The translations under genes were made by a program, and so were the position numbers. The notes under the pieces were generated by a model, which made no database searches, was not told the DNA's origin, and saw only the letters and a program-made list of their open reading frames with translations. 64,000 bases of DNA from Candidatus Moraniibacteriota bacterium (lineage in GTDB: Bacteria > Patescibacteriota > Minisyncoccia > Moranbacterales > GWC2-37-73), in NCBI GenBank assembly GCA_028715015.1, contig JAQTLF010000001.1:29243-93242 (forward strand). The letters are read 5' to 3'. Below, piece after piece: positions 6,898 through 44,082 of this stretch (positions are counted from its first letter, which is position 1; every line of letters begins with the position of its first letter).

Positions 6898-9204
6898 CTA
6901 TTTTCCGATGATTTTTCCGCCTTGCCCCACCTGGTCAAGCTTCACGGAAAGAAGTTTGGAAATTCCATCATCGCCCATGGTCACACCATAGAGAAGTGAG
7001 GCTTGTCGCATGGTTTCGCGATTATGGGTGATGGCGATGAATTGGGTCGTGCCGGAAAGTTCCTGCAAAATCTTGCTGAAACGTCGCGAGTTGGCTTCAT
7101 CAAGAGCCGCCTCCACTTCATCCAAAATCGCAAATGGCGGTGGGTTGTGAGAAATAATGGCAAAAAGAAGCGCCAAGGAAGTGAGCGATCTTTCGCCGCC
7201 AGAAAGCATGGAAAGATTGGCAATCTTTTTTCCCGGAGGACACGCAAAGATTTCCACTCCGATTTCATCGCGCTTTTCGTCTTCCGATTCCTGATTTTCA
7301 TCTTCCTGCTCATCAATTTCTGTTCCATCCTCAGCAACTTTCGCTTTGCGATTTTTTATTTTCAATTTGATCAGATGCGCATTTCCTCCGCCAAAAATGA
7401 TTCTGAAATATTTGGTGAATTCCTTGTTGATTTTTTCGAAAGCTTCCTCAAATTCAACCTTGATGCGTTGGTCCATTTCTTTGATGATGGCTTCCAAGGA
7501 AACAAGGGCATCAGCCAAATCTTTCAATTCCTGAGTGAGAAAATCAAAACGTGCGTTTGTCTCGCTGTATTCTTCAACGATCATCGGGTCAATTCCGCCG
7601 ATTTGTTCCATCTGAAGTTTCAGGCGTGAAATTTCCCTCTCCAGCATTTCCCTGTTGATCTCTTCACCATCAAATTTGAGCGCGGCAACTTCGCATTTAA
7701 GTTCGCTTCTGATTTCGTTGGTCAGATCTTCTTCGCGCACTTCCACGCGAGCCAGTTTTATTTTGGCATCATTGAATTGGTCTTTCAAAGTGTTGAGCTG
7801 TTCTTGTCTTACTCTGGATTCACGTTCCAATTGGAAAAAACGTTCGCGAAGCTGTCTGATTCTTTGATTTTCAGCCGTGATTTCTTTTTCAATTTTTTCA
7901 AGCTCGTCTCTGAGCTGGGTTTCTTTGAGTTGGAATCCTTTTTTCTTATTTTCAAGTTCTTCAATTTTTTTGTTGATCTCTCCGACTTCTTTGGAGTTGT
8001 CTTTCTTGATGGAAACTTCGCCTTTGCCAGATTCTTCATACAGATCAAAAAGTTGTTGTTGGATGGCCCGGGCAGATTCTTTGATGTCCTGCAAATCATC
8101 CATGTTTTCTGCTTCTTCCACTCGAAGAATCAATCTTTCCTGCGCCATGCGGATGTTGGAAAGCTTGGCTTGCACATATTTCAAATCAACAGGAATGATC
8201 TCGATGACTTTCTGATTGGCAAGTTTTTCTTTCTCAACAACGATGCGTCCTTCGGAAATTATCAGCTCGCGTTCAACATCATTGAGCTGCTGTCTTATTT
8301 GTGTTTTTTTTCTTTCCAACTCCTGTTCAGCTCCGCTATCTTGGGCTTTGCCTGATTCCTGATTGAGTTCATCTGTCATTTTGTCCACTTCGCGTTGCAT
8401 GTTCATCATGCCTGCTCCCAACGATTCTTTTTCTTGGGAAAATTTTTCACGTTCGCTTTGGAATTGATGCCACAAAAAAGAAAACAATTTTGTTTGTTTT
8501 TCTTTGAGTTCTTCGGCCACCACTTTTCCTTGCTGCGCTTTCTCAGCTTGGCGTTTGAGCATTTTCAAATGCGGCTCGATTTCACGGATCAACCCTGAAG
8601 TGCGCTGCATGTTTTCTCTGGTCGAATCGAGTTTTTTGACTGCCCTGTCTTTTTTGATCTGATATTGCTTCACTCCGGCAGCATCTTCCAAAACGCTGCG
8701 GCGATCCGCAGGAGTCGAATTTAGCAATGAGTCAGACATTCCCTGGTTGATAACGCAATAGCTTTCTTTTCCCACTCCAGCTTTGGCCAACAAATCCATG
8801 ACATCCAATAAACGTGAACGATTGCCATTGATCAGATATTCCGACTCTCCGGAACGATACAGTTTTCTAGTGATGATGACCTCCGTGAATTCAAGCGGGA
8901 TTCTTTTGTCGGCATTGTCAAAATGAAGAGAAACTTGGGCGCTGGAAAGACGCGCCTTTGTCCCAGACCCTGCAAAAATGATGTCCTCGGCTTTTTTTCC
9001 GCGCAGTGTTTTCATCGATTGCTCTCCCATCGCCCATTTGATCGCATCAGAGGTGTTGGATTTTCCTGATCCATTTGGTCCCACAATGGCCGTTATTCCG
9101 CGTGCTTCACTATCAACATTAAAATTCCCCGCTGGCAAAAATTCCAGCGTGGTTTTATTGGCAAACGATTTGAATCCTGATATTTCAACTTTTTTTAGAT
9201 ACAT
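6898..9204 (-). CDS. smc: chromosome partition protein SMC (short form, 768 aa)
   Basis: N-terminal Walker A GPNGSGKSN; coiled-coil middle; C-terminal signature LSGGERSLTSLALLFAI and Walker B ILDEVEAALD. Confidence 0.85.
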   Translation of the reverse strand: MYLKKVEISGFKSFANKTTLEFLPAGNFNVDSEARGITAIVGPNGSGKSNTSDAIKWAMGEQSMKTLRGKKAEDIIFAGSGTKARLSSAQVSLHFDNADKRIPLEFTEVIITRKLYRSGESEYLINGNRSRLLDVMDLLAKAGVGKESYCVINQGMSDSLLNSTPADRRSVLEDAAGVKQYQIKKDRAVKKLDSTRENMQRTSGLIREIEPHLKMLKRQAEKAQQGKVVAEELKEKQTKLFSFLWHQFQSEREKFSQEKESLGAGMMNMQREVDKMTDELNQESGKAQDSGAEQELERKKTQIRQQLNDVERELIISEGRIVVEKEKLANQKVIEIIPVDLKYVQAKLSNIRMAQERLILRVEEAENMDDLQDIKESARAIQQQLFDLYEESGKGEVSIKKDNSKEVGEINKKIEELENKKKGFQLKETQLRDELEKIEKEITAENQRIRQLRERFFQLERESRVRQEQLNTLKDQFNDAKIKLARVEVREEDLTNEIRSELKCEVAALKFDGEEINREMLEREISRLKLQMEQIGGIDPMIVEEYSETNARFDFLTQELKDLADALVSLEAIIKEMDQRIKVEFEEAFEKINKEFTKYFRIIFGGGNAHLIKLKIKNRKAKVAEDGTEIDEQEDENQESEDEKRDEIGVEIFACPPGKKIANLSMLSGGERSLTSLALLFAIISHNPPPFAILDEVEAALDEANSRRFSKILQELSGTTQFIAITHNRETMRQASLLYGVTMGDDGISKLLSVKLDQVGQGGKIIGK

Positions 9205-9250
9205 TATTCATGGAGCATGGAGCATGGAGCATGGAGCATAAATCATGAAT
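9205..9250 (-). repeat. heptamer CATGGAG x4 tandem repeat abutting the smc start codon
   Basis: catggagcatggagcatggagcatggagca directly 5' of the smc ATG; it creates clustered upstream AUGs, including a mini-ORF ending in UAAUG that overlaps the start. Confidence 0.8.
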
Positions 9251-9367
9251 GTTGGTGACATCTATATTTGTGCCAGATGTTCCACATTATAAGATTTATG
9301 AATATTGTTCTATGTTCTATGTTTTATGTTCTATGACATTGTACTACACTTTTTTATTTTGGGAAAG

Positions 9368-9408
9368 AAAAAAGGCTACAAAGAAATATCTTGTAGCGCT
9401 TTTGGGTG
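9368..9408. terminator. bidirectional intrinsic terminator
   Basis: A-run, GGCTACAAagaaatatCTTGTAGC hairpin, T-run. Confidence 0.55.
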
Positions 9409-9644
9409 GTTTTGGTCTGGGTACATTCGGGATCGAATTGTGCTTTTTGTGAACAAAAATCCACCGAACGCACCCAGCTTTGAGGTTCGCAAAATTTCAT
9501 CGAACCAAAATAGATAAAAAGGGCTTGTGCAGAGGGTTGGGGATGTGTAATGATTTCGTAAGTTTACGCATTACAATATACCCCAATCCCTCTGACACCT
9601 TCATCATATACCCACAGTGATCATTGTCAAGCAAAAATACATAG

Positions 9645-9690
9645 AAAAAAGCCCCGAGCAGAACGCGTCTGTCGGGGCATTTGGTTTTTG
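9645..9690. terminator. bidirectional intrinsic terminator
   Basis: AAAAAA, GCCCCGAGCAGAACGCGTCTGTCGGGGC hairpin, TTTGGTTTTT; adjacent to a perfect 7-bp GC hairpin at 9696-9720. Confidence 0.6.
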
Positions 9691-10165
9691 GGCGACCCGC
9701 GGGGAACTTTCTCCCGCGGGCGCATTATTATAGCACATTTTTTTCAAAATTTTGCGGAGGCAGGGGATTTTCATCCGCTAGCCTTTCCGCGGTCAGATAT
9801 CAGTTATTGGATAGCATCCGCTTACGAAGTCCTCAGCCTCGTGCTGATGCATTCGCCGGCGACGGTTCTTGTCCCGCAGCAGGTTTCCATTTACCGGGCT
9901 GGCAATACAAGTTTGCCAGATTGGATTCAGGAACATCCAGGCGGGAAAGAGAAAATGAATTAGCATCATTCCTCCTCTTTGGCGAAAACAACTTCACTCT
10001 GAGGCGGCCCATTTTTTAGGGCGGCCGAGACCGGGGCGCTACTCGCGCTGGGTTATCCCAGGGATGTGGCCGGCGCCGGCAGGTCGGGCGATCAGGTCGT
10101 TCTTCTTGAAGTCGTCTATGTTTGTATCAAGGGTGTTACGGCTCCACGGCGGACTGTGATTCGAC
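9691..10165. ncRNA. GC-rich (~58% GC) non-coding island of unknown class; candidate structured RNA, strand unresolved
   Basis: ~475 bp with no credible ORF on either strand, embedded in a ~35% GC genome; many short GC helices; an intrinsic terminator is immediately adjacent at its low-coordinate end; the segment GGCGGACUGUGAUUCGACAUG resembles a tmRNA 5' end but no tRNA-like 3' domain was found. Confidence 0.3.
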
Positions 10166-10394
10166 ATGTTACACCTCCAGATTTAAAGTCACCATTCCAT
10201 TTTATTGGAAGGCGCTAACAGAAAAGTATTTACATTGTCTTTCAAAAAATTTCTTACAAAAATACCTTTCCCGTTAGTGCCTTCCAAACATATTGTCTTT
10301 TCCAAAGAGCTGTACACTATTTCAGTGTAAATTTGAGTATAGCGCACTTTTGCAATCCTGTCAAGGGTTAAAAGCTAAAATACCAATTTTTGGC

Positions 10395-10520
10395 TCAAAT
10401 AAAGTAAAATTTTAGCATAAATCTTAATATCAAAATCCAAATGTCAAATAAAATTCAAAAACCAAAATTTTTAAAAAGTATTTTAGAAATTGAGTCATTT
10501 ATTTAACATTTGTCATTGAG
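10395..10520. repeat. degenerate copy of the AT-rich inverted-repeat family (TTTGGATTTTGTCATTTGG motifs)
   Basis: shares the motifs aaaatccaaatgtcaaataaaat, gagtcatttatt and gtcattgagattttggattt with the repeats at 19606-19746 and 21381-21590. Confidence 0.5.
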
Positions 10521-10529
10521 ATTTTGGAT

Positions 10530-11522
10530 TTAGCGCATTATATACGCTGCCATTTCCACCAAGCGATTAGAATATCCCCACTCATTGTCATACCATCCCA
10601 CAATTTTGACTTGATTTCCCATGCTCATGGTCAAAGGCAGATCAACAATGGAAGAATGTGGATTCATTTTGTAGTCCATGGAAACCAGCTCTTTGGTGGT
10701 CGCATCCAAAATGCCATGCAGGCTTCCCTGAGACGCTTTGACAAAAGCCGCATTGATTTCTTCCACGCTTTTCGGAGTTTTCACTGACGCGATGAAATCA
10801 ACAATTGAAACAACCGGGGTTGGCACACGCAATGCGATTCCGTCCAGCTTGCCGTTGAGATGCGGCATCACCTTTCCCACTGTCTTGGCTGCACCTGTGG
10901 TGGTTGGAATGATTGAAAGAGCAGCAGCGCGAGCGCGACGCAAATCACGATGCGGCAAATCCAAAAGGTTTTGATCGTTGGTATATGAATGTGTGGTGGT
11001 CATGAACCCTTGCTCAACATCACAAAGATCATCCAAAACTTTGATCATCGGAGCCAAACAATTGGTAGTGCAAGATCCATTGGAAACAACCGCCTCGCCC
11101 TTGTACTCTTTTTCATTGACACCCAACAAATATACCGGCACGTCATCTTTTGGCGGCGCGGAAAGAACAACTTTTTTTGCTCCGGCAATGAGATGTTTTC
11201 CAGCCGAAACATTGTCCAAAAAAATTCCCGTGCAATCCAAAACAACATCCACCCCGAGTTTGGCCCAAGGCAAATTCGCAGGATCCTTTTCGGAAAAATA
11301 TTTCACCGGTTTTCCGTCAATGATGATCTCATTGTTTTCTTTGTCAACGACAACTTCCCTGCCATACACTCCATAGGAAGAATCGTATTTGAGCAGATGC
11401 GCACTTGTCTCGATATCAGTCAAATCATTGACCGCCACGATTTCCATCTCTTCTTTTTCAAAAACTATTTTCAGTGATGGTCTGCCAATGCGACCAAAAC
11501 CATTGATTGCAACTTTAAGCAT
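10530..11522 (-). CDS. gap: glyceraldehyde-3-phosphate dehydrogenase (start refined to MLKVAINGFGRIGR)
   Basis: NAD-binding GFGRIGR motif and catalytic SNGSCTTNCLAP motif. Confidence 0.95.
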   Translation of the reverse strand: MLKVAINGFGRIGRPSLKIVFEKEEMEIVAVNDLTDIETSAHLLKYDSSYGVYGREVVVDKENNEIIIDGKPVKYFSEKDPANLPWAKLGVDVVLDCTGIFLDNVSAGKHLIAGAKKVVLSAPPKDDVPVYLLGVNEKEYKGEAVVSNGSCTTNCLAPMIKVLDDLCDVEQGFMTTTHSYTNDQNLLDLPHRDLRRARAAALSIIPTTTGAAKTVGKVMPHLNGKLDGIALRVPTPVVSIVDFIASVKTPKSVEEINAAFVKASQGSLHGILDATTKELVSMDYKMNPHSSIVDLPLTMSMGNQVKIVGWYDNEWGYSNRLVEMAAYIMR

Positions 11523-11567
11523 GCATGTAGCATGTATCATGTAGCATGTATCATGTATAAATGCACT
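11523..11567 (-). repeat. heptamer CATGTAG/CATGTAT tandem repeat abutting the gap start codon
   Basis: catgtagcatgtatcatgtagcatgtatcatg, period 7. Confidence 0.8.
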
Positions 11568-11622
11568 TAATGCGCCATCCTATACATAATACTTGATACA
11601 AGAATACTTTATACTTAATTTA

Positions 11623-11898: not shown

Positions 11899-11945
11899 GA
11901 GTTCATGTAACATGTAGCATATAGCATGTAGCATTTGAGACACGA
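11899..11945 (-). repeat. heptamer CATGTAA/CATGTAG/CATATAG repeat abutting the hypA-like start
   Basis: catgtaacatgtagcatatagcatgtagca, period 7. Confidence 0.75.
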
Positions 11946-11994
11946 AGTTCCCATCCGCATTTTTGTTATATGTTATATGTTGTATGTTATATGA

Positions 11995-13257: not shown

Positions 13258-13292
13258 AATTTCATGTAGCATGCAACATGTATCATGTAACA
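13258..13292 (-). repeat. heptamer CATG repeat abutting the hydrogenase large-subunit start
   Basis: catgtagcatgcaacatgtatcatgtaac; creates a mini-ORF whose UGA overlaps the start (AUGA). Confidence 0.75.
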
Positions 13293-13337
13293 AGCACGGT
13301 TTTTTGAATTTTTGTTTTATGCTATATGTTATACGCT

Positions 13338-22246: not shown

Positions 22247-22300
22247 GTTTTAGCTTTTTAGGCTTTAGCTTCTTAGCTTCTTAGCTTCTTGAAAAACTCA
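22247..22300 (-). repeat. octamer AAGAAGCU x3-5 repeat abutting the adk start
   Basis: minus-strand sense caAGAAGCTAAGAAGCTAAGAAGCTAAAGCCTAAAAAGCTAAAAC-ATG. Confidence 0.75.
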
Positions 22301-22348
22301 TTCAAATTCCTGAAAAGCTAATTGCCTAAAAAGCTATGAAGCTGTTAA

Positions 22349-23620: not shown

Positions 23621-23624
23621 TTCA

Positions 23625-23720
23625 AATAGCTTCTCAGCTTCTTAGCCTTTCAGCTTCTTAGCTTTAAAGATAGCATTAGTTTTTTTAATTTCCTAAGAAG
23701 CTAACAAGCTAATGCCTCAG
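23625..23720 (-). repeat. octamer/nonamer GCTAAGAAG-type repeats upstream of secY
   Basis: sense ...AAGCTAAGAAGCTGAAAGGCTAAGAAGCTGAGAAGCTATTTGAA-ATG. Confidence 0.7.
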
Positions 23721-23723
23721 AAG

Positions 23724-24161: not shown

Positions 24162-24241
24162 AAATTTAACTTATAACTTATAACTAACCACTTATAACGA
24201 ATTTTTACGTATTTCTGTTGTTTGTTATTTGTTATTGGTAA

Positions 24242-24760: not shown

Positions 24761-24805
24761 AATTATCATTAATCATGGAACATGGAGCATGGAACAAAAA
24801 TTCCA
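24761..24805 (-). repeat. heptamer CATGGAA/CATGGAG repeat abutting the rpsE start
   Basis: aatcatggaacatggagcatggaac. Confidence 0.8.
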
Positions 24806-24852
24806 ATCTGCCACACAATGTTCTATGTTTTATGCTCTATGTTATGTGTTAT

Positions 24853-25203: not shown

Positions 25204-25245
25204 AATTTATAATGAATCATGGAACATGGAGCATGGAACATATTT
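25204..25245 (-). repeat. heptamer CATGGAA/CATGGAG repeat abutting the rplR start
   Basis: aatcatggaacatggagcatggaaca; a mini-ORF stop (UGA) overlaps the start (AUGA). Confidence 0.8.
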
Positions 25246-25287
25246 TTTATTATCTTGCTCTATGCTTTATGCTCTATGTTATGTGAT

Positions 25288-25824: not shown

Positions 25825-25919
25825 ACTATTTTATCGTTCTAATTGTTATAATTGTTCTATGCGTTCTAGTTGTTTTTTCAATTACAACAGTTACAACATT
25901 TAGAACACTAGCACATCTA

Positions 25920-26591: not shown

Positions 26592-26677
26592 AATTTATCG
26601 TGAAACGTGGGGCGCGTAGCGTGGAGCGTTTGCATTCCTACGTTATGCGTTTTACGTTATGCGTTTTACCCTTTTAC

Positions 26678-27582: not shown

Positions 27583-27682
27583 ATATTTTAGTCAAAAGTC
27601 TTTCAAGTCTTTCAAGTCTTTCAAGCCAATGCATTTCTGCTTTATGGACTTTATGGACTTTCGACTTTATGGACTGCAATTA
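27583..27682 (-). repeat. ~95-bp composite repeat element, copy A (AAGTCTTTC x3 + aatgcatttctgc + TTTATGGAC x3)
   Basis: fills the rplN-rplX intergenic spacer; nearly identical to copies at 28049-28149 and 30483-30585. Confidence 0.9.
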
Positions 27683-28048: not shown

Positions 28049-28149
28049 ATATTTTAGTCAAAAGTCTATCAAGTCTATCAAGTCTATCAAGCTAATGCAT
28101 TTCTGCTTTATGGACTTTATGGACTTTCGACTTTATGGACTGCTATTAT
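28049..28149 (-). repeat. ~95-bp composite repeat element, copy B (AAGTCTATC x3 variant)
   Basis: the same substitution is present in all three tandem units of this copy (concerted variant). Confidence 0.9.
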
Positions 28150-30482: not shown

Positions 30483-30585
30483 AAATGTTAGTCAAAAGTC
30501 TTTCAAGTCTTTCAAGTCTTTCAAGTCAATGCATTTCTGCTTTATAGACCTTATGAACTTTATAACTTTATGGACTGGATATTAC
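30483..30585 (-). repeat. ~95-bp composite repeat element, copy C (more diverged 3' half)
   Basis: AAGTCTTTC x3 + aatgcatttctgc + TTTATAGAC/TTATGAACT/TTTATGGAC. Confidence 0.85.
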
Positions 30586-31814: not shown

Positions 31815-31898
31815 AATATTTTTTAGGTTTTAGCTTTTTAGCCTTTAGCTTTTCAGGAAAAACCTGAGAAGCTTAGAAGCTAATGCCTGAACAGCTAT
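31815..31898 (-). repeat. octamer AAAAAGCU-type repeats abutting the rplB start
   Basis: sense GAAAAGCTAAAGGCTAAAAAGCTAAAACCTAAAAAATATT-ATG. Confidence 0.7.
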
Positions 31899-41752: not shown

Positions 41753-42784
41753 TTATTGCCACGTGTATGAACTGAAGGCCCAATTTGCCATGGTTTTTAT
41801 GTCGGCCCATCTGGTGTTGTCATCCAAAACAACTGCGACAATGCGATGCTTCTTGGTTGGATCAGCCACCGTCATCACCAAAGAATATCCAGCCATAGGT
41901 GTGAATCCTGTTTTTGATCCGATTATGTTAGGCATCTGATCAAGCAGTTGATCCGTGTTCAAGATTGTGTGTTGCAACTTTCCATCAATCGAAGTAACGA
42001 TCGTGTTGCTTGGTTGTCTGGCAATTTTCCAAATTGTGTCATAGCGCAGTGAATAGGCGGCGATGCGCGCGATGTCATAGGCTGAAGAATAACATCCGGC
42101 TGCAGCACTTTCATCATCCAGATCGAGTCCTGAGGCTGTGCAAAAATGGGTGTCATTGAGCCCCAATTCTTTGGCTTTGGCATTCATGACATCCACGAAA
42201 GCATCCTGCGTGCCGGCAATATGTTTTCCTAAAGCGATGGCGCTGTCATTAGCACTGTTCATCAGCATGGCTTGCAACAAACTTCTGGCAGAAATTTCCT
42301 CGCCGACTTTCAGGCGCTGCGAAATGCAATAACCGCTGCGAGGACATCCTACCTTGGTGCCATCAGCATACACCGGTTCTTCATCAATCGTCACAGCCTC
42401 ATCAAGATTTGGAATTTTTTCCATCACCAAAATGGCTGTCATGAGTTTTGTGAGTGAGGCAATCTGTCTGTGGGTGCGACCCTCACTGTAGTGCAAAATT
42501 GTGCCAGTGTCAGCATCAATAATGACTGAAGCATGAGCCCCAGGCACGACAAGGTCTTTGATACCGCTCTTGCGCACCGGTTGATACTGCGGATCGTCCG
42601 TGGCCTGAGCTTTCAATGTTTCAATTTTTTTTGTTTCAACTCCAGCCACCAAACCTTGAATGCTTTTTTCATTGGAAACAACATCGGCTTGCACCTGATT
42701 GGGAGCCGCCAAATTTTCACGCAAAAACAAAAAAGAGTTCAGTGGAAAAAGCACTATCATCAAAATGGTTACCCCTATACCCAT
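41753..42784 (-). CDS. D-alanyl-D-alanine carboxypeptidase (serine type, PBP5/6 family)
   Basis: SLTKLMT (SxxK), SANDSA (SxN) and KTGFT (KTG) motifs; N-terminal signal/anchor. Confidence 0.85.
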   Translation of the reverse strand: MGIGVTILMIVLFPLNSFLFLRENLAAPNQVQADVVSNEKSIQGLVAGVETKKIETLKAQATDDPQYQPVRKSGIKDLVVPGAHASVIIDADTGTILHYSEGRTHRQIASLTKLMTAILVMEKIPNLDEAVTIDEEPVYADGTKVGCPRSGYCISQRLKVGEEISARSLLQAMLMNSANDSAIALGKHIAGTQDAFVDVMNAKAKELGLNDTHFCTASGLDLDDESAAAGCYSSAYDIARIAAYSLRYDTIWKIARQPSNTIVTSIDGKLQHTILNTDQLLDQMPNIIGSKTGFTPMAGYSLVMTVADPTKKHRIVAVVLDDNTRWADIKTMANWAFSSYTWQ

Positions 42785-43332
42785 TATTCTTGTGGAATTA
42801 TAGAATTAATTCTTTCATCTACTGACAGTATATCATATTCAGGAAGTTTTTTCACTGATTCCACTCCCAACTTTTTCAAAAAATCAAAGGAAATTACATA
42901 GACATATCCTCTGGAGTCACGCGGATTGTCCCCGCGCTCAATGAGACCACGCAAAAGCAAATTGCGCAAGGTGTAGGAACAATTGACACCGCGAATGGCT
43001 TCAATTTCTGTTTTGGAAATGGGACCACGATATGCGATGATGGAAACCACTTCCATGGCTGCAGTTGAAAGTGCGTCTTGCAACTCGTTTTTCACCAATT
43101 TTTCCACAAAATCTCCATTCTCGGCTTTGGTGACAAGCTGCAATTCATCGCCTTTCACCAGCAGACTCAGACCGCTGCCAACAAGATCGTAGCGCTGCCT
43201 CAAAGCTTCAATTGCCAGATCCAATTTTTCAACTTCAACCGCTGCCACCTTTGCCAATTTGCCGCGTTTCACTGGCTCGCCACTGACAAACAAAACACTT
43301 TCTATGATGGCCATCAATTTTTCCTGTTCCAT
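42784..43332 (-). CDS. scpB: segregation and condensation protein B
   Basis: tandem winged-helix ScpB (IIESVLFVSGEPV...). Confidence 0.85.
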   Translation of the reverse strand: MEQEKLMAIIESVLFVSGEPVKRGKLAKVAAVEVEKLDLAIEALRQRYDLVGSGLSLLVKGDELQLVTKAENGDFVEKLVKNELQDALSTAAMEVVSIIAYRGPISKTEIEAIRGVNCSYTLRNLLLRGLIERGDNPRDSRGYVYVISFDFLKKLGVESVKKLPEYDILSVDERINSIIPQE

Positions 43333-43356
43333 ATTTCAATATTATTAATTCAAAAA

Positions 43357-44082
43357 TTATTTTTCCCTGTGTTTCAATTGGATTTCTGAAAACAGTTCGC
43401 CTTGCTCAACATGGATCATCCTTTGCTTCACCAGTTCCAGCATGGCCAAAAATGAAACCACCACTTCAACTTTGTCTTTCGCATTTGCCACCAATTCGGA
43501 AAAAGATGTTTGGATTTTTTCGCGCAATGTTTCTTGCAGATGGACAATCCTGTCTTCCAAGGTGAGAATTTCTTTAACCATATCCTCTTCCAATTTTTCC
43601 ACCACTGGAATTTCTCCCAAAACCTTATTGAAAGCTTTCAACAGATCATCGGCGGTGATGTTTTCCGGAGGATAAAAAACTGTGCCCAGTCCTGAAAAGC
43701 CTTCGCGTGAAAAACTTGTCTGGGTTGAGTCGAACAGTGAAGCCAGATTTTTGCTGGCTTCTTTGAATTTTTTGTATTCCGCCAATTGATGTTCCAGATC
43801 TTTGATTTCTTCCTCCTCTTCTTCAGTAAATTCCAGCATCGGCAAAAGAGCTTTTGATTTTATCAAAATAAGCCTGGCAGCCACCGACAAAAAATCAGCC
43901 AGGTGTGCCAAAGTTATATCCTTGGCCTGCGCTATGTATTCCAAATATTGATCCGCGATTTGTGCCAGACTCACCCTGGTGATGTCCAGCTTCTCCTGTT
44001 CAGTGAGCTGCAACAGCAAATCAAGCGGACCTTCGAATTGTTCAAGTTTTATGTGATATGCCATAAATATTTCAATAATCAA
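43357..44082 (-). CDS. scpA: segregation and condensation protein A (kleisin)
   Basis: LEQFEGPLDLLLQLTEQEKLDITRVSLAQI N-terminal motif. Confidence 0.85.
   Translation of the reverse strand: MIIEIFMAYHIKLEQFEGPLDLLLQLTEQEKLDITRVSLAQIADQYLEYIAQAKDITLAHLADFLSVAARLILIKSKALLPMLEFTEEEEEEIKDLEHQLAEYKKFKEASKNLASLFDSTQTSFSREGFSGLGTVFYPPENITADDLLKAFNKVLGEIPVVEKLEEDMVKEILTLEDRIVHLQETLREKIQTSFSELVANAKDKVEVVVSFLAMLELVKQRMIHVEQGELFSEIQLKHREK

What the first reader, a model, noticed from the sequence alone, without database searches (positions are those of the whole stretch)
9205..9250. Four perfect CATGGAG heptamers with a UAAUG stop-start overlap at the smc start
This is the cleanest copy of the heptamer leader. 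It has four identical units, then AUGAAUA-AUG. The -14 and -35 AUGs open a mini-ORF (MLHAPCSMLHE* / MLHE*) whose UAA shares its final A with the smc AUG. ORF callers extend N-termini through these repeats (for example MIHATCMLKV for gap and MIIMNKRP for S5), so the starts of the affected genes need manual refinement.
Basis: seen in the sequence. Interest (0 to 1): 0.55.

Follow-up and report, generated by a model that had tools for sequence, protein, structure and literature searches.

The report
Heptamer-repeat palindrome forming the smc leader
The four CATGGAG repeats are real, but they are one arm of a fast-evolving palindrome built of 7-base repeats that fills the untranslated leader of smc; it is one of about 18 such spacer elements in this candidate-phyla-radiation bacterium, and I found no report of them for this group.

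Summary
Confirmed. The + strand at 9209-9236 holds four perfect CATGGAG units. smc (6898-9204) is on the minus strand, so its leader reads AUG(CUCCAUG)4AAUA-AUG. The -35 and -14 AUGs do open MLHAPCSMLHE*/MLHE*, ending in a UAAUG overlap.

However, the run is only one arm of a ~130-nt palindrome built of tandem heptamers. Its partner is TGTTCTA x4 at 9306-9335. The palindrome fills the whole smc 5' UTR, just downstream of a promoter shared with one orthologue.

About 18 stop-to-start spacers in the window carry such elements, in five sequence families (gap, hydrogenase, ribosomal-protein operon, secY, adk). The organism is a Moraniibacteriota (CPR) with almost no Shine-Dalgarno sites.

- The elements are absent from the nearest relative's orthologous spacers.
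- They differ among smc orthologues, which all keep the MYLKK-type start.
- One whole spacer is swapped between strains with identical coding flanks.
- Period-7 arrays are about 30-fold enriched and occur across CPR loci.
- The uORF layout is not conserved among family members.

The closest known things are cyanobacterial STRR heptamer hairpins and REP-like palindromes. My best reading is fast-turnover repeat palindromes co-transcribed with genes. In the smc copy, nine A.C mismatches keep the mRNA open. N-terminal over-extension of gap and S5 is confirmed. Function is untested.

The parts
9209..9239 (-). Start-proximal (3') arm: ATG(CTCCATG)4 in gene sense, which is CATGGAG x4.4 on the + strand. 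This is the finding itself.
   Evidence: it forms the helix 9208-9238 with 9306-9336 in the + strand fold
9204..9239 (-). Mini-ORF MLHAPCSMLHE* (with MLHE* nested inside), whose TAA overlaps the smc ATG (TAATG)
   Evidence: the layout is not conserved in the five sister leaders
9240..9305 (-). Centre of the palindrome (66-67 nt), with an inner hairpin and a TATAAT-like hexamer at 9286-9291. It is about 45-57 nt longer than the 10-nt centre of the homologous element in L207.
9306..9336 (-). Promoter-proximal (5') arm: CATAGAA/CATAAAA x4.3 in gene sense (TGTTCTA on the + strand)
9338..9365 (-). Promoter-like site TTCCCA-16-TACAAT just upstream of the 5' arm. It is shared with the smc leader of L207 (TTCCCA...TATAAT). 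It implies that the whole palindrome is the smc 5' UTR.
   Evidence: the transcription start site is inferred, not shown
9375..9397 (-). Terminator-like hairpin plus T-run that closes the upstream non-coding unit
6898..9204 (-). smc (SMC_N ATPase, 768 aa). Start ATG at 9204-9202.
11523..11622 (-). CATG-family element filling the hypA-gap spacer. The last CATG of the array supplies the gap start codon (true start 11522).
11899..11994 (-). CATG-family element between the hydrogenase large subunit and hypA (CATATAA x4 ... CTACATG x4)
13258..13337 (-). CATG-family element between the hydrogenase small and large subunits
24761..24852 (-). CATG-family element in the L18-S5 spacer
25204..25287 (-). 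CATG-family element in the L6-L18 spacer
26592..26677 (-). ACG-family element in the L5-S14 spacer. It shows the same strand asymmetry (12 G.U pairs in the + strand helix).
27583..27682 (-). 9-mer family (GTCCATAAA / CTTGAAAGA) in the L14-L24 spacer. In the strain on contig L082 it is wholly replaced by an AACA-family element.
28049..28149 (-). 9-mer family in the S17-L14 spacer
30483..30585 (-). 9-mer family in the S19-L22 spacer
31815..31898 (-). AGCTT 8-mer family in the L23-L2 spacer
23621..23723 (-). AGCTT family in the L15-secY spacer
22247..22348 (-). AGCTT family in the secY-adk spacer
25825..25919 (-). AACA family in the S8-L6 spacer. It is the closest relative of the element that replaces the L14-L24 spacer in L082.
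24162..24241 (-). AACA family in the S5-L15 spacer

Best explanation
The CATGGAG run is the start-proximal arm of a roughly 130-nt quasi-palindrome whose two arms are inverted arrays of tandem heptamers. In gene sense these are CATAGAA x4 at 9336-9306 and CTCCATG x4 at 9236-9209. The element begins right after a promoter shared with L207 and ends 4 nt before the smc ATG, so it makes up the whole smc 5' UTR. It is one copy of a dispersed class of spacer-filling tandem-repeat palindromes, with about 18 spacers and five sequence families in this window. The host is a Moraniibacteriota (CPR) genome that makes almost no use of Shine-Dalgarno sites. Shown: the elements turn over very fast. They are missing from the nearest relative, differ among smc orthologues, and in one case are swapped whole between strains. 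They also recur in other CPR species, at other loci and in either orientation. Inferred: copy number changes by replication slippage, since the perfect 4x arrays look recent. Whole elements are copied between spacers by ectopic conversion or template switching, helped by the hairpin and by 3-5 nt of microhomology at the stop and start codons. In this they behave like cyanobacterial STRR or enterobacterial REP repeats. The elements are transcribed with their genes. In most CPR copies the mRNA strand can fold (G.U exceeds A.C). In start-adjacent copies such as smc, every transition mismatch is A.C in the mRNA, so the leader stays about half unpaired and the A/U-rich start stays accessible. On this view the five upstream AUGs and the UAAUG overlap are by-products: a 7-nt repeat containing the CATG palindrome puts AUG in all three frames. 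At most they damp SMC translation.
For: - Paired arms: the + strand folds into a perfect 31-bp helix (-61 kcal/mol, z about -8 to -10).
- Class and families: 18 of 20 candidate spacers have z of -2.5 or lower on at least one strand, and near-identical copies lie in different spacers.
- Enrichment: 11 period-7 arrays against 0.35 expected, 10 of 11 non-coding.
- Taxonomic spread: 92 arrays per 1.15 Mb in 73 CPR loci against 0 per 135 kb in 7 non-CPR loci. 41 of 92 are followed by an ATG-ORF within -7..+30 nt, against 19% of random positions.
- Turnover: the nearest relative L057 (r-proteins 73-93% identical) has spacers of 12-56 nt with no such elements, against 80-103 nt here.
- smc orthologues: L207 has a degenerate CATG-family element with a 10-nt centre. 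L206 has a different family. L141 has different heptamers. L208 has a 12-nt spacer. All have the same start.
- Strain swap: L082 is 100% identical over the S17-L14-L24 coding sequence, but its L14-L24 spacer is replaced, from stop to start, by a ~90% copy of the S8-L6 element.
- Same family elsewhere: the S14-S8 spacer of L184, and flipped after rnhB in L141.
- SD-poor: 2 of 55 starts have GGAG or GAGG. PMC9297842 reports the anti-SD motif missing in about half of Parcubacteria.
- Open mRNA: smc has 0 G.U and 9 A.C. The real 5' UTR folds at -26.5 kcal/mol with the 3' arm 0.44 unpaired. It would reach -79.9 kcal/mol and be fully paired if the nine A were G.
- Position trend: helices far from starts show a sense G.U excess (28 against 13 helices), while those within 15 nt of a start do not.
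Against: - No transposase, HUH or RAYT-type domain was found in any main ORF of the window, and no target-site duplications were seen. The copying mechanism is therefore conjecture.
- Only one strain-level swap was observed, and it rests on a 1-kb metagenome contig.
- Retention of 60-90 extra nt per spacer in streamlined CPR genomes, and co-evolution of the two arms (window against L207), argue for a selected function rather than mere tolerance.
- The perfect 31-bp pairing on the antisense RNA strand is not required by this model, and the model explains it only indirectly.
- The near-start against far-from-start difference is significant only when single pairs are counted (p = 0.02), not at the level of helices (p = 0.75).
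- Some start-adjacent elements (gap, secY, adk) fold well in the mRNA sense.
Confidence: 0.5

Rival explanations
1. The elements are functional mRNA hairpins. As intercistronic or 5'-UTR stem-loops they would protect mRNA ends, act as RNase III-type processing sites, or couple translation of neighbouring cistrons by bringing the stop and start codons together. These are the roles proposed, but never shown, for cyanobacterial STRR hairpins.
For: The elements span exactly from stop codon to start codon, or from promoter to start. Several fold well in the mRNA sense (gap -30, secY -32, adk -31 kcal/mol, z -5 to -6). Across CPR loci, sense G.U exceeds A.C in helices away from starts (28 against 13 helices, p = 0.03). 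The arms co-vary between the window and L207. They are widespread in streamlined genomes. PMC2670836 states this proposal for STRR.
Against: The smc copy itself, and its CATG and ACG sisters, are barely structured in the mRNA sense (z -0.9 to -3.2; 0 G.U and 9 A.C). The elements are dispensable in the nearest relative and in L208. Different families are interchangeable at one spacer. The same element occurs flipped.
Confidence: 0.25
2. The functional strand is the antisense (+) strand. Antisense transcripts through the spacers would fold into long G.U-containing hairpins. These hairpins could stop or destroy antisense RNA, or act as cis-antisense regulators over the start regions.
For: The + strand RNA folds at -61 kcal/mol (z -8.3) against -28.6 (z -1.9) for the mRNA strand. 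The same bias appears in hypA, S14, S5, L18, L14 and L2 and in another species, L184 (-41.3, z -8.3, against -20.4). The bias is large only with RNA parameters, not DNA parameters. The expected deamination bias would give the opposite pattern (an inference from general knowledge).
Against: No promoter or U-tract consistent with a + strand unit was seen. Nearly all genes lie on the minus strand. Other families and other CPR loci show the opposite bias or none. In L141 the same element lies with its strongly folding strand in the mRNA sense. There is no Rfam match.
Confidence: 0.08
3. One reading: the array encodes a regulatory mini-ORF whose UAA overlaps the smc AUG, so SMC is made by termination-reinitiation.
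For: The overlap is real (TAATG). In L18 an upstream ORF ends in ATGA over the start. SD-less genomes may rely more on reinitiation (an inference).
Against: The layout differs in all six family members, and gap and hypA have open in-frame upstream AUGs. smc orthologues have other heptamers or no leader at all. The peptide is just the repeat read in frame. Also, 10 of 55 starts have an upstream ORF ending within 8 nt of the start, and 3 of 55 have TAATG.
Confidence: 0.07
4. The arrays are operator sites on double-stranded DNA for a protein that binds contiguous 7-bp heptads in direct and inverted orientation. This would resemble the omega repressor of inc18 plasmids or MetJ-type ribbon-helix-helix proteins (from general knowledge), here bracketing the smc promoter region.
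For: The geometry fits: contiguous heptads, one array direct and one inverted, next to a promoter. Some families are inverted arrays with little predicted RNA structure (AACA family, z -1.4 to -3.6).
Against: There are at least five unrelated heptad or nonamer sequences in one 64-kb window. Most copies lie inside operons, where no promoter is expected. No candidate regulator domain was found among the main ORFs. The arms co-vary as complements rather than keeping one motif.
Confidence: 0.05

Closest known systems
STRR (short tandemly repeated repetitive) sequences of filamentous cyanobacteria
   Same: Both are tandem 7-bp units in non-coding DNA and are often arranged so that they can form a hairpin between genes. 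Examples lie between the hydrogenase genes hupS and hupL. Their function is unknown, with transcript stability or translational coupling proposed (PMC2670836). Here too one element lies between the hydrogenase small and large subunits.
   Different: The phylum differs (CPR Moraniibacteriota) and the unit sequences differ, with several families per genome. Here the elements fill the spacer exactly from stop codon to start codon and carry the pre-ATG region. Strain-level replacement and a strand-asymmetric mismatch pattern are documented here. I know of no equivalent report for STRR (from memory).
REP/BIME repetitive extragenic palindromes of enterobacteria and pseudomonads
   Same: Both are dispersed imperfect palindromes confined to intergenic DNA, co-transcribed with genes, found in both orientations, and variable between strains. 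REPs are thought to affect mRNA stability (general knowledge).
   Different: REPs are single 20-40-nt palindromes, not arrays of tandem heptamers. They are mobilised by a RAYT transposase, and no such gene was seen in this window. They mostly lie 3' of genes rather than abutting start codons.
Correia/NEMIS-type MITEs of Neisseria, and similar elements (RUP, ERIC)
   Same: Both are short elements with inverted-repeat ends, inserted next to genes and transcribed into hairpins that can change expression (general knowledge).
   Different: Those elements have defined terminal inverted repeats and target-site duplications, and one conserved sequence. Here the arms are microsatellite-like arrays, no duplications were seen, and many sequence families coexist.
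Overlapping stop-start (UAAUG/AUGA) translational coupling and leader uORFs
   Same: The smc leader has a short ORF whose UAA overlaps the AUG.
   Different: The arrangement is not conserved in sister leaders or orthologues, and the peptide is the repeat read in frame.

Membership tests
STRR-type tandem heptamer repeats | Tandem repetition of a 7-bp unit | tested here: met
   4.4 perfect copies at 9209-9239. There are 11 period-7 arrays in the window against 0.35 expected.
STRR-type tandem heptamer repeats | Confined to non-coding DNA between genes | tested here: met
   10 of 11 arrays lie in the 16% of the window that is non-coding. The spacers run from stop codon to start codon.
STRR-type tandem heptamer repeats | Able to form a hairpin through inverted arrays | tested here: met
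   31-bp helix between 9208-9238 and 9306-9336. It is strong on the + strand and weak in the mRNA sense.
STRR-type tandem heptamer repeats | Host is a filamentous or heterocystous cyanobacterium, with the canonical STRR unit sequences | tested here: not met
   SecY and operon relatives are Moraniibacteriota/Patescibacteria. The units are CTCCATG, CATAGAA and others. The canonical STRR units are recalled from memory.
REP/BIME | Imperfect palindromes, dispersed in intergenic DNA, in both orientations | tested here: inconclusive
   Several near-identical copies per family occur in 64 kb, all in one orientation here. One flipped copy occurs in L141. No whole genome was available.
REP/BIME | Cognate RAYT (Y1 HUH) transposase gene in the genome | tested here: inconclusive
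   No such Pfam domain in any main ORF of the window. The rest of the genome was not seen.
MITE (Correia-like) | Terminal inverted repeats flanked by a target-site duplication | tested here: not met
   The arms are inverted, but no direct duplication flanks the copies compared.
MITE (Correia-like) | Transcribed hairpin cleaved by RNase III | not testable with these tools
   No transcript data. An rnc gene is present in the relative L141.
Stop-start coupled leader uORF | uORF stop codon overlaps the main start codon | tested here: met
   TAATG at 9206-9202.
Stop-start coupled leader uORF | Arrangement conserved in paralogous leaders and in orthologues | tested here: not met
Stop-start coupled leader uORF | uORF is translated | not testable with these tools
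   Needs ribosome profiling or reporters.
Heptad operator arrays (omega/RHH type) | Contiguous 7-bp repeats, direct and inverted, at a promoter | tested here: met
   This holds for smc only; most other copies lie inside operons.
Heptad operator arrays (omega/RHH type) | One conserved heptad motif recognised by one regulator | tested here: not met
   At least five unrelated unit families occur in the window.

The most novel reading that the evidence does not exclude
CPR bacteria carry a phylum-wide class of modular spacer cassettes. These would be tandem-heptamer palindromes that run exactly from the stop codon (or promoter) to the next start codon, carry the translation-initiation region of the downstream gene, and are exchanged between spacers and strains. 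On this reading they are a selected way of punctuating operons and setting translation in lineages that have lost Shine-Dalgarno pairing, and the strand-asymmetric G.U/A.C design tunes whether the mRNA or only the antisense RNA can fold.
Probability: 0.15. Interest if true: 0.8.

Novelty: new variant of a known kind. Interest (0 to 1): 0.55.

Why it matters
- Annotation: gene starts next to these arrays are easily mis-called. gap and S5 are affected here, and so are P0001 and rnhB in relatives.
- Assembly: contigs break inside the arrays.
- Biology: the elements add 60-90 nt to many spacers in genomes otherwise selected for compactness. They occur across CPR lineages and change faster than anything else in the operon, so they may serve as strain markers.
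- Open questions: they offer a possible handle on how operon expression and Shine-Dalgarno-independent initiation are organised in a major uncultured group.
- Link to STRR: the parallel with cyanobacterial STRR hairpins, whose role has been open since they were first described, suggests a shared cause that comparison of the two groups could expose.

Tried and rejected
- **Rfam:** no family matched at gathering score over the whole window. Only chance miRNA-like hairpin hits appeared at E of 0.05 or higher around the locus.
- **tRNA and tmRNA:** none found.
- **CATG restriction-modification or methylation idea:** CATG has an observed/expected ratio of 0.96 in the window, so I dropped it.
- **Mutational-bias origin of the asymmetry:** C-to-T deamination on the exposed sense/leading strand predicts sense G.U, the opposite of what is seen. 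This is an inference, using the skew.
- **DNA-hairpin reading of the asymmetry:** with DNA parameters the two strands differ little (-18.7 against -14.9 kcal/mol).
- **Intrinsic terminator for antisense transcripts:** no U-tract directly follows the + strand hairpins.
- **TATAAT in the centre as the smc promoter:** replaced by the shared upstream TTCCCA-16-TACAAT.
- **Copy-number variation of the smc array between strains:** exact-protein look-ups returned only the same sample for smc, S5, L18 and hypA, and nothing for L24, S8 and S19.
- **Metagenome scan for (CTCCATG)3:** more than 120 contigs matched, mostly long heptamer arrays from unrelated, higher-GC organisms. Only four were paired CPR-type elements, too few for an orientation census.
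- **Literature:** five searches found no description of such repeats in CPR.
- **gap-smc non-coding region:** no detectable similarity to the syntenic regions of relatives.

Full report
**The observation**

The + strand carries four exact CATGGAG units at 9209-9236. Tandem Repeats Finder scores the array at 9209-9239 as period 7, 4.4 copies, 100% matches.

The gene beside it is on the minus strand. ORF 6898-9204 begins MYLKKVEISGFKSF and matches Pfam SMC_N from residue 2. In gene sense the leader therefore reads ATG(CTCCATG)4-AATA-ATG.

- The AUGs at -35 and -14 give MLHAPCSMLHE* and MLHE*, ending in a TAA that shares its last A with the smc ATG.
- The in-frame AUG at -21 is closed by TGA at -6..-4. 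This is why the mechanical ORF list does not extend smc.
- The AUGs at -28 and -7 end at +18..+20.

An independent assembly (Logan, SRR22315509) is identical over the locus, and its contig begins inside the array.

**The run is half of a larger unit**

A second period-7 array, TGTTCTA x4.3, lies at 9306-9335. It is the approximate reverse complement of the first.

Folded as RNA, the + strand gives an uninterrupted 31-bp helix between 9208-9238 and 9306-9336. Its energy is -61 kcal/mol, with z about -8 against shuffles. The gene-sense strand reaches only -28.6 kcal/mol, z -1.9.

The difference arises because every non-Watson-Crick position is G.U on the + strand and therefore A.C in the mRNA. 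The count is 22 Watson-Crick, 0 G.U and 9 A.C in sense. If the nine A were G, the 5' UTR would fold at -79.9 kcal/mol instead of -26.5 and the start-proximal arm would be fully paired. As it is, the arm is 0.44 unpaired. With DNA parameters the two strands differ little.

**Where the element sits in the transcript**

A terminator-like hairpin at 9397-9375 closes the upstream unit. A promoter-like TTCCCA-16-TACAAT lies at 9365-9338.

The smc leader of a relative (L207, 83% identical SMC N-terminus) aligns over this stretch (TTCCCA...GTAGTATAAT). It then runs into a homologous but degenerate CATG-family element with a 10-nt centre.

I infer that transcription starts at about 9331. The whole palindrome would then be the smc 5' UTR. 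The TATAAT-like hexamer in the centre is probably incidental.

**The same architecture fills many other spacers**

Printing the sequence upstream of every gene and folding both strands shows about 18 spacers of the same build. Each runs: stop codon (or promoter), a 5' array of 7-9-nt repeats, a short centre, an inverted 3' array, then 0-13 nt to the ATG.

The families are:
- **CATG family:** smc, gap, hypA, hydrogenase large subunit, S5, L18.
- **GTCCATAAA nonamer family:** L22, L14, L24.
- **AGCTT octamer family:** L2, secY, adk.
- **AACA family:** L6, L15.
- **ACG family:** S14.

Gene identities come from Pfam. In gap, the last CATG of the array is the start codon itself.

Period-7 arrays are about 30-fold enriched (11 against 0.35 expected), whereas periods 5 and 6 are not. 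Ten of the 11 arrays lie in the 16% of the window that is non-coding.

**The organism**

SecY relatives are Candidatus Moraniibacteriota and other Patescibacteria. The nearest species representative is 88% identical. There is no L30 gene between S5 and L15.

Only 2 of 55 starts have GGAG or GAGG at -22..-4. The region before starts is A/T-rich and G-poor. This agrees with the report that the anti-SD motif is missing from about half of Parcubacteria 16S rRNAs (PMC9297842).

**Evolutionary behaviour**

Nearest relative. In L057 (ribosomal proteins 73-93% identical) the orthologous spacers are 12-56 nt long and contain no such elements. Here they are 80-103 nt.

smc orthologues. All share the MYLKK-type start, but their leaders differ:
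- L207 has a degenerate CATG-family element.
- L206 has a GTCCATAAA-type element.
- L141 has different heptamers (CTTGCTA/CTTTCTA).
- L208 has a 12-nt spacer and a GTG start.

Strain-level swap. The JGI contig L082 is 100% identical to the window through S17, L14, the start of L24 and the S17-L14 element. Its L14-L24 spacer, however, is replaced from the stop codon to the start codon by a ~90% copy of the AACA-family element that lies between S8 and L6 in the window. Only 3-5 nt of similarity exist at the junctions.

Same family in other species. The CATAGAA/CTCCATG family recurs elsewhere. In L184 it lies between S14 and S8, where its last CATG is the S8 start codon and the antisense bias is the same. 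In L141 it lies in the opposite orientation, directly after rnhB, so that the strongly folding strand is the mRNA strand.

Spread across CPR. Seventy-three CPR loci hold 92 period-7 arrays in 1.15 Mb, against none in 135 kb of seven non-CPR loci. Of the 92, 41 are followed within -7..+30 nt by an ATG-ORF, against 19% of random positions.

**Which strand matters**

In this window seven elements fold clearly better on the + strand, five fold better in the mRNA sense, and the rest fold equally.

Across the other CPR loci, helices that end more than 15 nt from a start show more sense G.U than A.C (92 against 54 pairs; 28 against 13 helices). Helices that end within 15 nt of a start do not (19 against 25 pairs). 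The contrast is significant only when pairs are counted (p = 0.02), not when helices are counted (p = 0.75).

I read this as weak support for two points:
- The elements generally fold in the mRNA.
- Stable structure is disfavoured next to SD-less starts. Among transitions, only G-to-A or U-to-C breaks a pair, and both leave A.C in the sense strand.

The deamination bias expected on the exposed sense strand would give the opposite pattern. A function of the antisense RNA cannot be excluded.

The claim that ORF callers over-extend N-termini holds.
- For gap, PDB GAPDHs align from ORF residue 7-8, and related contigs call a 330-aa protein.
- For S5, the nearest relative has an in-frame TAA 6 nt upstream of its ATG-AAC-AAG start, and an independent gene call gives 172 aa.

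The repeat-encoded residues are not conserved in SMC homologues, so the stated refutation condition is not met.

The mini-ORF as a coupling device is not supported.
- The fates of the upstream AUGs differ in all six CATG-family leaders. gap and hypA have open in-frame AUGs.
- Upstream ORFs that end within 8 nt of a start occur at 10 of 55 genes.
- A 7-nt repeat containing the palindrome CATG necessarily puts AUG in all three frames.

**Comparison with what is known**

The closest described objects are the STRR sequences of filamentous cyanobacteria. These are 7-bp tandem repeats that can form hairpins between genes, including between hupS and hupL. Their function is unknown, and transcript stability or translational coupling has been proposed (PMC2670836). 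Here one element also lies between the hydrogenase small and large subunits.

REP/BIME and MITE-type palindromes share the dispersed, intergenic, co-transcribed habit. They are not tandem-repeat built, and no RAYT or transposase domain or target duplication was seen here.

Five full-text searches found no description of such repeats in CPR or Patescibacteria. A metagenome scan showed that (CTCCATG)n arrays also occur in many unrelated contigs of varied GC content. Heptamer arrays as such are therefore not CPR-specific.

**Verdict**

It is best described as one arm of a fast-turnover, STRR-like tandem-heptamer palindrome that forms the smc leader. This is a new variant of a known kind.

Its mode of spread (slippage plus ectopic copying) and its effect on expression are inferred, not shown. 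The strand asymmetry and the preference for period 7 remain unexplained.

Noticed in passing
window 9398-10530 (minus strand): About 1.1 kb between gap and the smc promoter has no ORF. It holds two units bounded by a strong promoter-like site and a terminator-like hairpin. The first runs from TTGACA-17-TATACT at 10364-10336 to a terminator near 9650 (about 650 nt, GC-rich). The second runs from TTGACA-16-TATGAT at 9630-9603 to the terminator at 9397-9375 (about 220 nt). There is no Rfam, tRNA or tmRNA match, and no similarity to the syntenic gap-smc spacers of relatives.
   Followed up: partly
L082:768-862 against window 27583-27682: Between strains with identical S17, L14 and L24 coding sequence, the whole L14-L24 spacer is exchanged for an element of another family. 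That element is about 90% identical to the S8-L6 spacer. The junctions fall at the stop and start codons.
   Followed up: yes
L141:8805-8925: A CATAGAA/CTCCATG element lies in the opposite orientation directly after rnhB. The rnhB ORF reads 7 codons into the (CATGGAG)3 array before its stop. The strongly folding strand is the mRNA strand here.
   Followed up: partly
L104, around 1640-1760: A CATG-family element appears to lie in frame inside a CCA-adding-enzyme-like ORF, between RRDFTMNAIA and IVDPFDGQKDL. This is reminiscent of Rickettsia palindromic elements.
   Followed up: no
window 6898-9204, 42784-44082: The SMC homologue is only 768 aa. It is 793 aa in L141, and L208 splits it into 458 + 311 aa. 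ScpA and ScpB are encoded 34 kb away in the same window.
   Followed up: no
centres of the elements, e.g. window 27625-27640, 28091-28106, 26628-26640, about 1160-1175; L207 about 1150: Many elements of different families have the palindrome ATGCAT (AAATGCATT) at their centre.
   Followed up: no
window 1-64000, gene starts: Only 2 of 55 starts have GGAG or GAGG at -22..-4. There is a strong preference for T at -1 and A at -6..-3. No L30 gene lies between S5 and L15.
   Followed up: partly
L073:5317-5400 and 7718-7770: In a Microgenomates (Curtissbacteria) locus, heptamer arrays are followed by CCTCC...GGAGG, a possible Shine-Dalgarno-sequestering hairpin, just before the ATG.
   Followed up: no
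window 10420-10529 and 1113-1243: Further tandem-repeat palindromes lie directly after the gap stop codon and upstream of L7/L12. They are AT-rich, with AAATCCAAAATC and TTTGTAGA units.
   Followed up: partly
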